From assembly GCA_036393295.1 (NCBI GenBank), contig DASWHF010000018.1:2634-66633 (forward strand): a DNA stretch of 64,000 nt. Reading direction: 5' to 3'. Source of the DNA: Acidiferrobacterales bacterium. GTDB taxonomy: Bacteria > Pseudomonadota > Gammaproteobacteria > Acidiferrobacterales > UBA6901. Under the pieces are notes generated by a model. It made no database searches and had not been told where the DNA came from. It saw only the letters and a program-made list of their open reading frames with translations. A program made the position numbers and the translations under genes. Below are positions 13,398 through 16,777 of this stretch, one piece after another (within the stretch, counting starts at the first letter, position 1; every line of letters begins with the position of its first letter).

Positions 13398-14456
13398 CTA
13401 GTCCACTCCTGCCTTCCCTTCCCGGCGCGCGCCCGGTTCGATATCCAATCGCGTGCAGGCACCCGCGGCGGCCGTGTGCACATGCACCGGCAGAAATCGC
13501 GTTAGCAGCCAGAGGACAGTCTGCGCGTGGGCGGACAGGTCGCGCACCAGGAAACTTGACCGGCCATGCGCGAGCGCGGCGTAAACCGGGATCTGATCGG
13601 CGGCATGGATGTCGAGCGTGGCGCCGGCGCGGATTTCCGCGCGCAGCGCCTGTGCGGCGTTCTCGGCGATGCGCTCCGCGGCGATGCCGCGTTGGGCTAC
13701 CTCGGACCCGCCGAGCAGCGCCTGTCCGCAATGCGCCCACAGCACGATCGCACCGCCCTGCCCGACGGCTTGTGACCGATCTAGCACGAGTTGTTCAACT
13801 TCGACAGGCGCCAGATCGGACAGCGCCTGCACCGCGGTCTGATGCATGCGCATTGCGATATGCGCCGGCAGGTTCGCTACATGAACAATGCCGCGGATTT
13901 CCTCTGGCGCGCCCGCCGCCTCCAGTCGAAGCGGACCTAGCCGGCCCGGCCACACCTCCGCCGTAATCTCGCCGCCGCCCCGCGGGTAGTAACCGCGGCG
14001 CAGCAGCGTCAGCTTGACGTCCGCCCCCATGCGCGCGAGCAGTGGCAAGAAGACGAATCGCAGATAGTCGAACGGCGGTGCGCCCCGAACGTCGGTGCCG
14101 CCGATCAGATGGATACGAATCGGCGTGCTGCAGAACAGCGCCGCCGGGAGCAGCGCCTGTAGCACCAGCGTCACGCTGCCCGCCGTCCCCACGTCGAAAC
14201 GAAACTCGCCGCCACGGAGCTGCCCGGGACGAAAGGTAAGCGTCTGCGATCGCAGTTCCAGCCCGTCGGTCTGGGCGCCGCACAGCGTGGCGACGGCCTT
14301 CACCGCCGTGAGATGTTGCGGGGCCAGGCCCGGGGGTCTGCGGCGTGCCCGGATGTCGTGAATCCGCACCGCCTGGCCCGTGATGGCGGACAAGGCGCAG
14401 GCCGTGCGCAGCAACTGCCCCCCGCCTTCGCCGTATGCGCCGTCTAGGTCGAGCAT
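13398..14456 (-). CDS. rtcA: RNA 3'-terminal phosphate cyclase
   Basis: MLDLDGAYGEGGGQLLRTACALSAITGQAVRIHDIRARRRPPGLAPQHL...HAADQIPVYAAL is full-length RtcA-like (352 aa). Confidence 0.85.
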   Translation of the reverse strand: MLDLDGAYGEGGGQLLRTACALSAITGQAVRIHDIRARRRPPGLAPQHLTAVKAVATLCGAQTDGLELRSQTLTFRPGQLRGGEFRFDVGTAGSVTLVLQALLPAALFCSTPIRIHLIGGTDVRGAPPFDYLRFVFLPLLARMGADVKLTLLRRGYYPRGGGEITAEVWPGRLGPLRLEAAGAPEEIRGIVHVANLPAHIAMRMHQTAVQALSDLAPVEVEQLVLDRSQAVGQGGAIVLWAHCGQALLGGSEVAQRGIAAERIAENAAQALRAEIRAGATLDIHAADQIPVYAALAHGRSSFLVRDLSAHAQTVLWLLTRFLPVHVHTAAAGACTRLDIEPGARREGKAGVD

Positions 14457-14748: not shown

Positions 14749-15432
14749 ATGGCAAAAAAGATCCCTGAAATTTACCAGCACATCGCCATCATCATCCTGG
14801 TGACCCTGATGGCCATCGGCGCCAATCTGCCCGATGAAATCAGCAAGGGTCTGGGGATCAACAAGAACTACCTGCTCATCGGCCTGATCGCGATCGTGAC
14901 GGTGTCGCTGGTGCGCTATCTCAAGTTCACGCTGATACTGGTGATCGCCATCCTGGCGGTCGGCGCCAATCTGCCCGAGAGCATCGCCAACGAGCTGGGA
15001 GTGAGCACGCAGGTCATGTTCTTCGCGCTGGTGGCGATGGTGGTGGTGTCGTTCATGAATTTCGTCCTGCACCTGCCGAAGGGCGTCAAGCCCATCAAGC
15101 AGATCAACAGCGCGCACGGCGCGCGCGCCCTGTGTCAGGCCGCGTACAAGGGCCACGCTTCAATGGTGTATTCACTGATCAGCGCGGGCATCAATCCCAA
15201 CTATTCCGACGAGCGCGGCAACGTCCCGCTGGTGGTGGCGGCCTCGCAGGGGCGCGCGCTGGTGGTGAAGCTGCTGCTCGACAACGGCGCGGACGTGAAC
15301 GTCAAGGACGGTTCCGGCAAGACGGCGATGCAGGCCGCCGCCGAAGGCGGCTTCAACCAGACGGTGGTGCTGCTCAAGAACGCCGAGCTCAAGTCCCTGG
15401 GCGGCGGCGCGGCCACGCCGGCGGCGGGATGA
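14749..15432 (+). CDS. Membrane protein with internally duplicated GANLP(D/E) TM module and C-terminal ankyrin repeats
   Basis: ATG at 14749 follows GAGCGGAG. Two ~45-aa hydrophobic repeats each carry (A/V)GANLP(D/E). The ankyrin part reads GHASMVYSLISAGINPNYSDERGNVPLVVAASQGRALVVKLLLDNGADVNVKDGSGKTAMQAAAEGG. Confidence 0.7.
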   Translation: MAKKIPEIYQHIAIIILVTLMAIGANLPDEISKGLGINKNYLLIGLIAIVTVSLVRYLKFTLILVIAILAVGANLPESIANELGVSTQVMFFALVAMVVVSFMNFVLHLPKGVKPIKQINSAHGARALCQAAYKGHASMVYSLISAGINPNYSDERGNVPLVVAASQGRALVVKLLLDNGADVNVKDGSGKTAMQAAAEGGFNQTVVLLKNAELKSLGGGAATPAAG

Positions 15433-15668
15433 GACCCTGCCCTGCCGCTAAACGACGGAAATGGTGCCCCGAGCCGCTATCACAACATCCGCCGCGTAGT
15501 TGGCGGTCTGGGTCCACGCCTTCAACGTGTTTGGGTTTGCCCTCCCAGAACGGGACAGTCGCCAAAAGTAACCGCACGTGCGTGATGTGCAGATTGGACG
15601 CTGTGAAACTCTGCAATGGTGCCCGGGGCCGGACTCGAACCGGCACGGGGTTGCCCCCGAGGGATTTT

Positions 15669-16378
15669 CTTACCCGCTACGGCTTTCGCCGCCGCGTTCC
15701 GTGAAGAACGCATTTTGTGGTCTGGACTTTCTCTTTTCCCTAGGCTAGTTTTCACCAGCCCTTAGGTAGGGGCCGTTAAGTCTCTACACTTTCCCAAAGC
15801 TGGAGCGATACAGGGACGATCGTGAAGCTCCGAAAGTATTCCGCCATGCAGCTCAAGCTGGCGGTGAAGACCGCCACATCGCTGAGGCAGGTTTTGCAGA
15901 AGCTCAACGTCGCCCCGTACGGCGGCAATTACGACGTTCTCAAGAAAGCCATTCGGCACTTCGATCTCGATACGTCGCATTTCGTCGGTCAAGCATGGAG
16001 CAAGGGGAGGAAGCTCGCGCCGCGATGGCCGATCGAACGCTATCTCAACAATTCGCGCCCCGTACAGTCCAACAGACTCAGGCGCTGGCTGTTGCGTGAT
16101 GGCATCCTTGAACATCGCTGCTCGTTCTGCCGCCGAACACGATGGCTCAACCGGCCTATTCCCCTCGAGCTTGATCACATCAACGGGAACAACAAGGACA
16201 ACAGGCTGGAAAACCTCCGTCTCTTGTGTCCCAACTGCCACGCGTTCACTCCAACATACCGCAATAGAAAGCGGTCTCGGGCTTAGCTCGGGATTGTCAC
16301 CGCCATGACGCGCTGAGATTCCCCCGAATTTGACCCCATTCATGCCAGGGGTTTCCCGCCTGGATGCTCAAATTACTT
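15669..16378 (-). mobile_element. Group I intron (IC3-like, tRNA-Leu(UAA) type) with an ORF insertion
   Basis: It follows U34 and ends in G. The 5' part reads AAGUAAUUUGAGC...GGCGGGAAACCCCUGGCAUGAAUGGGGUCAAAUUCGGGGGAAUCUCAGCGCG. The 3' part reads GUGUAGAGACUUAACGGCCCCUACCUAAGGG...GUAAG. These match remembered core segments of the Azoarcus tRNA-Ile and cyanobacterial tRNA-Leu introns (GUCAAAUUCGG, GUGUAGAGACU, ACCUAAGG). The non-ORF core is about 245 nt. Confidence 0.8.
15822..16286 (+). CDS. HNH homing-type endonuclease encoded antisense within the intron
   Basis: The C-terminal ELDHINGNNKDNRLENLRLLCPNCH is a clear HNH motif, with CSFC...CPNCH as a zinc-finger-like pair. GTG at 15822 (ATG at 15846 is an alternative). 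The stop lies inside the intron hairpin CUCGGGCUUAGCUCGGG. Confidence 0.85.
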   Translation: MKLRKYSAMQLKLAVKTATSLRQVLQKLNVAPYGGNYDVLKKAIRHFDLDTSHFVGQAWSKGRKLAPRWPIERYLNNSRPVQSNRLRRWLLRDGILEHRCSFCRRTRWLNRPIPLELDHINGNNKDNRLENLRLLCPNCHAFTPTYRNRKRSRA

Positions 16379-16453
16379 AAGTCCCTTGCGTCTACCTATT
16401 TCGCCACCCGGGCAATCGGGAAGGCACTGCAACATTATACCGAAATGCGAAAC

Positions 16454-16527
16454 TGGAGGCTGGGGTCGGAATCGAACCGGCGTCCACGGCTTTGCAGGCC
16501 GCTGCATAACCACTCTGCCACCCAGCC
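16454..16527 (-). tRNA. cysT: tRNA-Cys(GCA)
   Basis: Reverse complement GGCTGGGTGGCAGAGTGGTTATGCAGCGGCCTGCAAAGCCGTGGACGCCGGTTCGATTCCGACCCCAGCCTCCA. Anticodon loop is CT-GCA-AA. Confidence 0.9.
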
Positions 16528-16651
16528 GGGATGTCACAAAAAGACAGGGAAAGCGTCGCGCTTCCCCTCGGGGCCGTCGCCCGGATCGGCGCCCCGCCTG
16601 CTCGCCGGTCGGCATTACGGCGGGCGGCGACGGCCGGCCCGAACAGAAGTC

Positions 16652-16726
16652 TGGAGCGGGAAACGAGATTCGAACTCGCGACCCCAACCTTGGCAAGGTT
16701 GTGCTCTACCACTGAGCTATTCCCGC
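16652..16726 (-). tRNA. glyW: tRNA-Gly(GCC)
   Basis: Reverse complement GCGGGAATAGCTCAGTGGTAGAGCACAACCTTGCCAAGGTTGGGGTCGCGAGTTCGAATCTCGTTTCCCGCTCCA. Confidence 0.9.
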
Positions 16727-16777
16727 GCTAAAGGCTGGGTATTGTAAACGCGGTCACTGGACTGTCAAGCGCGCGCC

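What the first reader, a model, noticed from the sequence alone, without database searches (positions are those of the whole stretch)
15617..16413. tRNA-Leu(UAA) split by a 710-nt group I intron in a high-GC proteobacterium
At first sight only a 3' tRNA-Leu fragment is present at 15617-15668. The missing 5' half (GCCCGGGTGGCGAAATAGGTAGACGCAAGGGACTT) lies 710 nt upstream on the same strand, at 16379-16413. Joining the halves gives a perfect 87-nt tRNA-Leu with anticodon loop CUUAAAA.

The break falls after U34 and the intervening sequence ends in G. This is the same position and the same boundary rules as the cyanobacterial and plastid tRNA-Leu(UAA) group I intron.

The intervening RNA carries segments that match the IC3 intron core as I remember it from the Azoarcus and Anabaena introns: AAGUAAUUUGAGC, GGGAAACC, GGGGUCAAAUUCGGGGG, GUGUAGAGACUUAACGGC, ACCUAAGG.

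As far as I know, the classic bacterial tRNA introns are tRNA-Leu and tRNA-fMet in cyanobacteria, tRNA-Ile in Azoarcus and tRNA-Arg in Agrobacterium. An ORF-bearing tRNA-Leu(UAA) intron in the conserved pgsA-glyW-cysT-leuZ locus would therefore be notable. Standard tRNA finders may miss or truncate this gene.
Basis: partly seen in the sequence, partly recalled or inferred. Interest (0 to 1): 0.85.

Follow-up and report, generated by a model that had tools for sequence, protein, structure and literature searches.

The report
Mobile self-splicing intron in tRNA-Leu gene
A leucine tRNA gene of an uncultured gammaproteobacterium is split by a real self-splicing group I intron, of a kind already reported in this bacterial group, and the intron carries an intact HNH DNA-cutting enzyme gene written on the opposite strand, a layout I found in many bacteria but in no paper I could search.

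Summary
On the minus strand, 16413-16379 plus 15668-15617 join into a perfect 87-nt tRNA-Leu(UAA). The 710 nt between them (16378-15669) sit after U34 and end in G.

The insert is a genuine compact, Azoarcus-like (IC3-type) group I intron.
- Rfam's Intron_gpI model misses it, because a 461-489-nt insertion fills the P6 loop.
- A profile built only from ORF-less relatives hits both halves of it (E 8e-28 and 4e-29). Those relatives do hit Intron_gpI.
- Across 35 homologous introns, 96% of consensus pairs form and 38 of 63 pairs covary. The window keeps 62 of 63 pairs.

The ORF (15822-16286) lies on the plus strand, antisense to the intron. It encodes an intact 154-aa HNH endonuclease under purifying selection. 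Its phage relatives are free-standing genes wedged inside tRNA arrays.

This is not a rarity. The same intron with the same antisense HNH occurs at the same uvrC-pgsA-tRNAGly-tRNACys locus in many gammaproteobacterial assemblies. It is also in cultured Salinisphaera sp. PC39 and in Acidobacteriota. ORF-less tRNA-Leu(UAA) introns occur in several phyla and were already reported in Gammaproteobacteria.

The new element is the antisense HNH cargo. It would give this classically "immobile" intron a plausible means of homing. Interest is moderate.

The parts
16379..16413 (-). tRNA-Leu(UAA) 5' exon (35 nt, ends at U34)
   Evidence: The exon is identical or nearly so in all relatives.
15669..16378 (-). 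Group I intron, 710 nt. It starts AAGUAAUUUGAGC and ends ...GGGUAAG (terminal G, omega-G).
   Evidence: ARAGORN -i, nhmmer halves, covariation.
15617..15668 (-). tRNA-Leu(UAA) 3' exon (52 nt: A35-A36, long variable arm, encoded CCA)
   Evidence: The exon-exon anticodon stem covaries between sequences (col 2/315: GC 29, CG 5, AU 1).
16266..16378 (-). Ribozyme 5' half. P1 (16381-16377 with 16371-16367, U34.G wobble at the splice site). P2 with GAAA loop (16366-16341). P3 5' strand (16337-16332). P4 (16327-16322 with 16293-16288). P5. P6 5' strand (16281-16277).
   Evidence: nhmmer profile positions 1-120, E 8e-28. Helix coordinates. Pair counts.
15805..16265 (.). Insertion in the P6 terminal loop. 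It is absent from ORF-less relatives and carries most of the HNH gene.
   Evidence: This is the gap between the two nhmmer hits. The P6 region is 472-489 nt in ORF-bearing introns and 9-47 nt in most ORF-less ones.
15822..16286 (+). HNH endonuclease gene, 154 aa, GTG start, antisense to the intron. The stop codon TAG is the complement of CUA in the conserved core motif GAGCUAAG. The last codons overlap the P6 5' strand.
   Evidence: phrog_10822 E 5.8e-45. 7506 homologues. Intact in 11 of 11 introns, with pN 0.20-0.33 and pS 0.79-0.98.
15669..15804 (-). Ribozyme 3' half. P6 3' strand (15797-15793). P7 5' strand (15784-15779). P3 3' strand (15774-15769). P8 with CCUAAG...UAGGG receptor-like motif (15768-15736). 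P7 3' strand (15728-15724). P9.0 (15721-15719 with 15674-15672). P9a (15712-15693). P9b with GAAA loop (15692-15679).
   Evidence: nhmmer profile positions 116-254, E 4.4e-29..
16454..16726 (-). Upstream tRNA-Gly(GCC) and tRNA-Cys(GCA) of the same cluster
   Evidence: The same Gly-Cys-Leu order is seen in L002, L023, L083, L114 and L128.
16741..16768 (-). Promoter-like site TTGACA-16-TACAAT just upstream of tRNA-Gly. It is a candidate promoter of the tRNA cluster.
   Evidence: 11 of 12 match; consensus scan only.

Best explanation
This is the leuZ-equivalent tRNA-Leu(UAA) gene of an uncultured gammaproteobacterium. It is interrupted between U34 and A35 by a compact IC3-type group I intron that carries a homing-endonuclease gene.

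Inferred mechanism of splicing. The gene is transcribed on the minus strand, probably together with tRNA-Gly and tRNA-Cys. The intron RNA folds into P1-P9. Exogenous guanosine attacks at the U34.G wobble pair of P1. The terminal G then docks in P7 and the exons are ligated into an 87-nt tRNA.

The P6 loop holds, on the opposite strand, an intact 154-aa HNH endonuclease gene that must be transcribed from its own plus-strand promoter. The protein most likely nicks or cuts intron-less tRNA-Leu(UAA) genes near the insertion site, so that recombinational repair copies intron and gene into them (homing).

Shown here: exon and intron boundaries, homology to group I introns, a conserved and covarying ribozyme fold, an intact ORF under purifying selection, and recurrence in many genomes. 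Inferred: actual self-splicing, how the antisense gene is expressed, and endonuclease activity and target.
For: Boundaries and tRNA.

Group I identity:
- ORF-less homologues hit Rfam RF00028 (L077 62.8 bits, above the gathering score of 50; eight others E 4e-9 to 6e-4).
- A profile built from 17 ORF-less introns hits the window's two halves at E 8e-28 and 4e-29, in the correct order and on the correct strand.
- RNAalifold recovers P1-P6, P8 and P9 on its own.
- With P7 and P9.0 added, 96.2% of cells pair, against 29-44% when partners are slid. 38 of 63 pairs change on both sides, and 0 of 500 shuffles reach this.
- The U.G pair at the splice site is invariant in 35 of 35 sequences. The window keeps 62 of 63 pairs.

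Functional tRNA: the exons are conserved, and the anticodon stem, which is split between the exons, shows compensatory change.

HNH gene:
- Pfam HNH_3 and HNH score just below cut-off. phrog_10822 matches at E 5.8e-45 over the full length.
- D118, H119, N131, H140 and the cysteines C100, C103, C136 and C139 are invariant.
- All 11 intron copies are intact, with saturated synonymous and low non-synonymous change.
- Phage homologues sit between tRNA genes in 4 of 4 cases inspected.

Signs of mobility:
- ORF-bearing and ORF-less introns occur in related hosts at the same locus.
- Decayed ORF remnants are seen in L069 and L113.
- HNH identity (63-76%) exceeds that of the housekeeping PgsA (50-70%) in the same host pairs and does not correlate with it (r = 0.09).
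- The intron and HNH region is 53-58% G+C in a 65-72% G+C context.
Against: - The window itself has no Rfam Intron_gpI hit. This is explained by the insertion, but the direct test on an insert-deleted sequence could not be run.
- P7 is invariant, so it gets no covariation support.
- No convincing plus-strand promoter or strong ribosome-binding site was found for the HNH gene.
- The protein model has no significant match to a solved structure.
- No RNA data are available.
- Whether a second tRNA-Leu(UAA) gene exists in this genome is unknown. None lies in the 64-kb window.
Confidence: 0.85

Rival explanations
1. The ribozyme is real, but the HNH gene is not this intron's homing endonuclease. 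It could be a selfish free-standing-type gene that merely lodges in the harmless P6 loop, possibly targeting another site. It could also be a domesticated protein with another role.
For: The closest phage relatives are free-standing genes between tRNA genes, not intron-borne. The gene is on the antisense strand and so is uncoupled from intron expression. One relative (L113) carries a remnant in the opposite orientation, which suggests the cargo can flip independently of the ribozyme.
Against: The gene always sits at the same place in the same intron of the same tRNA gene, in Gammaproteobacteria and in Acidobacteriota. The family's association with tRNA genes fits a tRNA-gene target. Intact, decayed and absent states are all seen, as expected for a homing cycle.
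Confidence: 0.12
2. The gene is a dead tRNA-Leu pseudogene disrupted by a decaying mobile element. Another gene supplies tRNA-Leu(UAA).
For: The Rfam model does not hit the window. Default tRNA finders see nothing here. The rest of the genome cannot be inspected.
Against: 62 of 63 consensus ribozyme pairs are intact in the window. The exons give a flawless tRNA. The same interrupted gene is kept at the conserved Gly-Cys-Leu locus in hosts whose PgsA is only 50-60% identical, with compensatory changes in the ribozyme and in the split anticodon stem.
Confidence: 0.02
3. The arrangement is an artefact of metagenome assembly, a chimeric contig that joins a tRNA gene to foreign DNA.
For: The window comes from a metagenome assembly (ENA ERZ27256989, contig k141_2841364).
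Against: The same architecture appears in independent assemblies from ENA, NCBI, JGI and Logan, and in the isolate genome of Salinisphaera sp. PC39.
Confidence: 0.01

Closest known systems
[quoted passage not shown]
   Same: Both are compact introns in a tRNA anticodon loop (205 nt in Azoarcus; PMC13168695). The scan motif GAARGTGTAGAGACTWRACGGC was designed to cover both the window and my remembered Azoarcus sequence, but no Azoarcus locus was among the 120 returned. Both have GAAA loops on P2 and P9. The window's P8 carries a CCUAAG...UAGGG receptor-like motif. That the Azoarcus intron has the matching receptor arrangement is from memory.
   Different: The host tRNA and insertion position differ (Leu UAA after U34). 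The window intron has extra P9a/P9b elaboration and a 461-489-nt P6 insertion with a protein gene. The Azoarcus intron has no ORF.
[quoted passage not shown]
   Same: The tRNA and the insertion point (between U34 and A35) are identical. Both have a U.G pair at the 5' splice site and a terminal G.
   Different: From memory, the classical intron has no ORF and a different core sequence around P7 (GGUGCAGAGACUCGACGGG), so my motif would not match it. No classical cyanobacterial tRNA-Leu intron was retrieved or compared, so orthology between the two intron lineages was not tested.
Reported gammaproteobacterial tRNA-Leu(UAA) introns
   Same: Same host class, same tRNA and same intron kind. [quoted passage not shown] Maribeggiatoa' BOGUAY and Ca. 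Thiomargarita nelsonii. A 231-nt intron in subsurface isolate D0715 was reported by Vepritskiy et al., J Bacteriol 2002 (from memory; the paper is not held in the library).
   Different: Those introns are short, so ORF-less (the Thiomargarita gene spans 353 nt). The window's intron carries an HNH gene.
I-Ssp6803I in the Synechocystis tRNA-fMet intron
   Same: It is an endonuclease gene inside a bacterial tRNA group I intron. Homologues turned up in my scan in tRNA(CAU) introns of several phyla (PDB 2OST at E 5e-66, PF11645).
   Different: It belongs to the PD-(D/E)XK family, lies in sense orientation, and is inserted in the 5' part of the intron rather than P6.
Phage intron HNH nicking endonucleases (I-HmuI, I-BasI, I-TwoI, I-PfoP3I)
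   Same: These are HNH enzymes encoded in group I intron loops that nick near the intron insertion site (PMC3428280). The Twort nrdE-I2 endonuclease also lies in P6 (PMC4853749).
   Different: In those enzymes the HNH motif lies nearer the N-terminus (PMC3428280), the genes are, as I recall, on the sense strand, and the host genes are protein-coding. Here the HNH domain is C-terminal, the ORF is antisense and the host gene is a tRNA. Similarity is limited to the HNH motif.
Antisense homing-endonuclease genes in nuclear rDNA group I introns (Didymium Dir.S956-2)
   Same: The endonuclease gene is on the strand opposite to the ribozyme, in a peripheral helix (PMC3679873).
   Different: That case is eukaryotic nucleolar rDNA with a different endonuclease family (His-Cys box, from memory) and eukaryotic expression signals. 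I found no bacterial precedent in the searchable literature.

Membership tests
Group I intron (Rfam RF00028 Intron_gpI) | Significant covariance-model match | tested here: inconclusive
   The window has no hit at E<=10. ORF-bearing relatives L083 and L023 also have none at the gathering threshold. ORF-less homologues do hit: L077 at 62.8 bits (gathering score 50), eight others at E 4e-9 to 6e-4. The insert-deleted window sequence could not be given to the tool.
Group I intron | P1 helix formed by the 5' exon end and an internal guide sequence, with a U.G wobble at the splice site | tested here: met
   CUUAA (16381-16377) pairs with UUGAG (16371-16367). The U.G pair is present in 35 of 35 sequences.
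Group I intron | Intron ends in G (omega-G) | tested here: met
   The intron ends ...GGGUAAG before AAAAUCCC. The G is invariant in all aligned introns.
Group I intron | Conserved core P3-P4-P5-P6 and P8-P9 helices supported by covariation | tested here: met
   96.2% of cells pair. 38 of 63 pairs change on both sides. Slid controls give 29-44%. The window keeps 62 of 63 pairs.
Group I intron | P3/P7 pseudoknot with a G-binding P7 that carries a bulged nucleotide | tested here: inconclusive
   G(A)GACU (15784-15779) can pair with AGUCC (15728-15724) in all 35 sequences. Every column is invariant, so there is no covariation either way. P3 does covary (3 of 6 pairs).
Group I intron | Guanosine-dependent self-splicing | not testable with these tools
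   This needs in vitro transcription and splicing, or RNA data.
IC3 subgroup (tRNA-type compact introns) | Compact core without P5abc or P2.1, insertion in a tRNA anticodon loop, GNRA loops on P2 and P9 with receptor motifs | tested here: met
   The core is about 220-250 nt once the P6 cargo is removed. GAAA loops lie at 16355 (L2) and 15687 (L9b), and P8 carries CCUAAG...UAGGG. PMC11835236 notes that IC3 lacks P5a-d. No subgroup-specific model was available, so this assignment rests on anatomy.
Cyanobacterial/plastid tRNA-Leu(UAA) intron lineage | Same insertion site (U34/A35) | tested here: met
Cyanobacterial/plastid tRNA-Leu(UAA) intron lineage | Common descent of the intron core with the cyanobacterial intron | not tested
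   No classical cyanobacterial tRNA-Leu intron was retrieved or compared. From memory, its core would not match the scan motif.
HNH homing endonuclease | HNH (beta-beta-alpha-metal) motif with conserved His and Asn and zinc-binding Cys pairs | tested here: met
   Pfam HNH_3 23.7 bits (cut-off 24.8) and HNH 21.1 bits (cut-off 21.4). phrog_10822 'HNH endonuclease' E 5.8e-45. D118, H119, N131, H140, C100, C103, C136 and C139 are invariant in 34 sequences.
HNH homing endonuclease | Encoded within a self-splicing intron and optional among related alleles | tested here: met
   The gene lies in the P6 loop. ORF-bearing, ORF-decayed (L069, L113) and ORF-less introns are all found.
HNH homing endonuclease | Site-specific cleavage or nicking of the intron-less allele | not testable with these tools
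   This needs a protein expression and cleavage assay.

The most novel reading that the evidence does not exclude
[quoted passage not shown] In Gammaproteobacteria and Acidobacteriota it has a widespread and so far undescribed mobile form. That form is driven by an HNH endonuclease encoded antisense in P6, from a protein family specialised on tRNA genes (its phage members sit inside tRNA arrays). Antisense placement may be a general solution for HNH genes in bacterial tRNA introns. Two further HNH types, seen in tRNA-Leu(CAA), tRNA-Leu(CAG) and tRNA-Arg(CCU) introns, are also antisense, while the PD-(D/E)XK genes are all sense. The P6 stem may allow the cargo to invert.
Probability: 0.4. Interest if true: 0.65.

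Novelty: new variant of a known kind. Interest (0 to 1): 0.5.

Why it matters
The tRNA-Leu(UAA) intron is the textbook "ancient" bacterial and plastid intron. Whether it spreads laterally has been argued for decades, and no mobility gene has been found in it. An intact, selected endonuclease gene inside this intron makes lateral spread directly testable. It occurs across two phyla, and its divergence is uncoupled from that of the hosts. A cultured carrier (Salinisphaera sp. PC39) is available for the experiments.

There is also a practical point. Standard annotation misses these tRNA genes and labels the endonuclease as a stray "HNH endonuclease", so tRNA-Leu(UAA) will look absent from many genomes.

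Tried and rejected
- Direct Rfam scans of the window, 6 kb and then 831 nt at E<=10, gave no Intron_gpI hit. They gave only a weak LOOT RNA match over P8-P9, which I attribute to shared tetraloop and receptor modules.
- A PDB sequence search with the HNH protein gave only chance-level hits to hydroxylamine oxidoreductase.
- The AlphaFold model has pLDDT 79.8 and pTM 0.47. Foldseek against the PDB gave nothing at E<0.001. The weak top hits were HNH nucleases (EcoKMcrA, Cap5) and winged-helix domains.
- NCBIfam gave only a far sub-threshold IscB match.
- The sigma-70 scan found no plus-strand promoter for the HNH gene. My own scan found a recurring but weak TAGGCA-16-TACACT (8 of 12) formed by the antisense of P8 and P7. 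It lies in conserved core sequence that ORF-less introns share, so I count it only as a hypothesis.
- I could not retrieve Vepritskiy et al. 2002 or Rudi et al. 2002; neither is held.
- Nine literature searches found no description of antisense HNH genes in bacterial tRNA introns (paper text read). Absence from this library is not proof of novelty.
- ARAGORN's intron boundaries were off by two bases for L002 and L005, which it called Ser and Phe. I corrected them by exon alignment.
Full report
**1. Observation**

On the minus strand, 16413-16379 reads GCCCGGGTGGCGAAATAGGTAGACGCAAGGGACTT and 15668-15617 reads AAAATCCCTCGGGGGCAACCCCGTGCCGGTTCGAGTCCGGCCCCGGGCACCA. ARAGORN folds the joined 87 nt into a canonical class II tRNA-Leu(taa). 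With its intron option it finds the gene in the genomic sequence with a 710-nt intron at position 36.

Default ARAGORN and the Rfam tRNA model report only the neighbouring tRNA-Gly(GCC) and tRNA-Cys(GCA).

The locus is uvrC-pgsA-tRNAGly-tRNACys-tRNALeu, all on the minus strand. A strong promoter-like site, TTGACA-16-TACAAT, lies before tRNA-Gly.

The window is a metagenome contig (ENA ERZ27256989). Its UvrC is closest to MAGs named Acidiferrobacterales, Gammaproteobacteria and Sulfuricaulis. Flanking DNA is 65-72% G+C, and the intron region is 53-58%.

**2. Is it a group I intron?**

The reason is a large insertion.

I scanned one genome per bacterial species for the core motif GAARGTGTAGAGACTWRACGGC. 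In 109 of them ARAGORN places the motif inside an intron-split tRNA gene. About 39 of these are tRNA-Leu(UAA), with introns of either 213-377 nt or 678-698 nt.

- ORF-less tRNA-Leu(UAA) introns from Gammaproteobacteria match Rfam Intron_gpI. L077 scores 62.8 bits against a gathering score of 50. L080, L011, L073, L043, L048, L086, L128 and L024 score 48-31 bits (E 4e-9 to 6e-4).
- The ORF-bearing relatives L083 and L023 fail at the gathering threshold, as the window does.
- A profile HMM built only from 17 ORF-less introns hits the window twice on the minus strand. 16386-16266 matches profile positions 1-120 (E 8e-28). 15804-15661 matches positions 116-254 (E 4e-29).

The two halves of the ribozyme are thus both present, in order, and separated by 461 nt at the tip of P6. 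Outside the insertion the window is 74% identical to the Rfam-passing L077 and 78% identical to L043.

**3. Structure**

I aligned 35 tRNA-Leu(UAA) introns with the long P6 interiors masked. On this alignment RNAalifold alone recovers these elements:
- the anticodon stem split between the exons;
- P1;
- P2 with a GAAA loop;
- P3, P4, P5, P6 and P8;
- two P9 hairpins, one with a GAAA loop.

I then added the P7 pseudoknot and P9.0 and counted pairs:
- 96.2% of cells form standard pairs, against 29-44% when partners are slid by 1-3 columns.
- 38 of 63 pairs change on both sides, 324 cells in all.
- None of 500 shuffles reaches any measure.
- The U.G pair at the 5' splice site is present in 35 of 35 sequences, and the last intron base is always G.
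- P7 is invariant, so it is compatible but untested.

The window keeps 62 of 63 consensus pairs. Helix coordinates are in the parts list.

The anatomy is that of the Azoarcus-type IC3 introns: a core of about 220-250 nt, no P5abc, GAAA loops on P2 and P9, and a CCUAAG...UAGGG receptor-like motif in P8. No subgroup-specific model was available, so the subgroup is inferred from anatomy.

**4. The cargo**

The only long ORF supported by homologues is on the plus strand, 15822-16286, antisense to the intron.
- It encodes 154 aa with a C-terminal HNH motif. Pfam HNH_3 and HNH score just under cut-off. phrog_10822 matches over the full length at E 5.8e-45.
- The alignment of 34 homologues keeps D118, H119, N131, H140 and two CxxC pairs invariant.
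- The GTG start aligns with ATG in the relatives.
- The stop codon TAG is the complement of CUA in the conserved core motif GAGCUAAG. The last codons overlap the 5' strand of P6.

The predicted structure has a helical N-terminal domain and a small beta-beta-alpha C-terminal domain. It has no significant match to a solved structure.

All eleven intron-borne copies examined are intact. Against the window they show pN 0.20-0.33 with synonymous sites saturated (pS 0.79-0.98), which means purifying selection.

The family is large: 7506 clusters at E<=1e-3. The best 120 are 152-224 aa long, most of them exactly 154 aa, and 62-75% identical. All five I looked up lie in the same intron next to pgsA-uvrC.

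**5. Relatives elsewhere**

The same intron with the antisense HNH gene occurs in:
- Gammaproteobacteria MAGs (L023, L088);
- the isolate Salinisphaera sp. PC39 (L083);
- Acidobacteriota, mainly Pyrinomonadaceae (L044, L106, L107).

Phage genomes hold full-length homologues at 40-51% identity. In the four I inspected, the gene is free-standing and wedged between tRNA genes, on the same strand as the tRNAs and 0-1 nt from, or overlapping, the next tRNA gene. These are Citrobacter phage Maleficent, Rhodococcus phage Dorin, Gordonia phage GodonK and Escherichia phage EcSzw-2. The family as a whole is therefore associated with tRNA genes, which fits a tRNA-gene target.

**6. Signs of mobility**

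- ORF-less and ORF-bearing introns sit at the same Gly-Cys-Leu locus in related hosts.
- L069 keeps decayed N- and C-terminal remnants of the ORF. L113 keeps a C-terminal remnant (CPNCHVLTDNYRGKN) in the sense orientation, between 9-bp inverted stem arms. This suggests the loop can invert.
- Among seven gammaproteobacterial carriers, HNH identity (63-76%) is higher than identity of the adjacent housekeeping PgsA (50-70%). The two are uncorrelated (r = 0.09).

This pattern fits repeated lateral homing better than strict vertical descent. Stronger constraint on the endonuclease is not excluded.

**7. How it most likely works**

The pre-tRNA is made from the minus strand. The ribozyme splices itself out through the classical two-step guanosine-initiated pathway and releases tRNA-Leu(UAA).

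The HNH gene must be expressed from the plus strand. No convincing promoter was found. An intrinsic-terminator-like hairpin on the plus strand at 15694-15711 is the complement of P9a followed by a T run. It would block read-through from upstream, so a promoter between 15712 and 15821 is the best guess.

By analogy with intron HNH enzymes, which nick near the insertion site (PMC3428280), the protein would nick or cut intron-less alleles, and repair would copy the intron in. Splicing, expression and cleavage are all inferred.

**8. Comparison with what is known, and novelty**

- Bacterial group I introns lie mainly in tRNA and rRNA genes (PMC3984707).
- tRNA-Leu(UAA) introns in Gammaproteobacteria are already on record (PMC4853749; Vepritskiy et al. 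2002 from memory). The intron as such is not new.
- As far as I recall, I-Ssp6803I is the only characterised endonuclease of a bacterial tRNA intron. It is a sense-strand PD-(D/E)XK enzyme. I found its homologues in tRNA(CAU) introns of several phyla.
- Antisense endonuclease genes are documented for nuclear rDNA introns (PMC3679873).
- In nine searches and several papers read, including a 2025 intron and endonuclease database paper (PMC11835236), I found no report of an HNH gene, antisense or otherwise, in a bacterial tRNA-Leu(UAA) intron.

I rate it a new variant of a known kind, of moderate interest.

**9. Limits**

- The taxonomic sample is capped at 120 loci.
- ARAGORN's calls for other tRNAs are unverified.
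- Novelty rests on a library that lacks most subscription journals.
- No RNA or biochemical evidence exists.

Noticed in passing
L012, L038, L071, L078 (tRNA-Leu CAA/CAG introns) and L085 (tRNA-Arg CCU intron, Phormidesmis MAG): Other long tRNA group I introns also carry antisense ORFs with HNH motifs. One type is zinc-ribbon plus HNH. L085 matches PF13391 HNH_2 at E 1e-7. Apart from the motif they are unrelated to the window's protein, and they are inserted in the 5' part of the intron rather than in P6. L038 looks truncated. In this sample every HNH cargo is antisense.
   Followed up: partly
L017, L039, L047, L058, L060, L094 (tRNA CAU introns), L059 (tRNA-Leu CAA intron), L010 (remnant): Sense-strand ORFs of 149-192 aa are close homologues of I-Ssp6803I (PDB 2OST at E 5e-66; PF11645 at E 1.5e-50). 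The hosts include Nitrospirota, Chloroflexota, Rhodothermales, Methylomirabilota, Desulfococcaceae and a gammaproteobacterium. This endonuclease is therefore far more widespread than its single characterised example.
   Followed up: partly
L009-L128 (genome scan): The Azoarcus-type core motif lies inside predicted intron-split genes for many tRNAs: Met/Ile CAU, Leu CAA/CAG/AAG, Arg CCU/UCU, Thr CGU, Gln, Gly UCC, Lys, Asn, Phe, Pro and even SeC (L120). The hosts include Saccharibacteria, Gracilibacteria, Planctomycetota, Chloroflexota, Acidobacteriota, Nitrospirota and Bacteroidota. The anticodon calls come from ARAGORN's intron mode and were not verified.
   Followed up: no
L113 (Planctomycetia MAG), P6 region of its 282-nt tRNA-Leu(UAA) intron: A remnant of the HNH C-terminus (CPNCHVLTDNYRGKN, 81% identical to L106) lies in the sense orientation, bounded by a perfect 9-bp inverted repeat that forms the P6 stem. 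The P6 cargo may be invertible by recombination between the stem arms.
   Followed up: partly
window 15660-15768 (minus); L077 2831-2938: There are sub-threshold matches to Rfam LOOT RNA (RF03000) over P8-P9 of the intron: 21.2 bits in the window and 32.7 bits (E 1e-4) in L077. Both RNAs have a CCUAAG...UAUGG-type receptor followed by GAAA-capped hairpins. This may be modular resemblance or a real relationship between LOOT and the 3' domains of group I introns.
   Followed up: no
window 15694-15711 (plus): A terminator-like hairpin with a T run lies on the plus strand. It is the complement of ribozyme helix P9a plus the J9 A-run. It would stop read-through transcription entering the HNH gene from upstream.
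   Followed up: no
window 16546-16568 (minus): A terminator-like hairpin (10-bp stem, then GTCTTTTTGT) lies between tRNA-Gly and tRNA-Cys. A TATAAT box lies at 16439-16434, 21 nt before tRNA-Leu. The three tRNAs may therefore not form a single simple operon.
   Followed up: no
window 13398-14456 (minus) and 14749-15432 (plus): On the 3' side of the tRNA-Leu gene lie an RNA 3'-terminal phosphate cyclase homologue (PF01137, PF05189) and an ankyrin-repeat membrane protein. This side of the locus is not conserved among carriers, unlike the uvrC-pgsA side.
   Followed up: no
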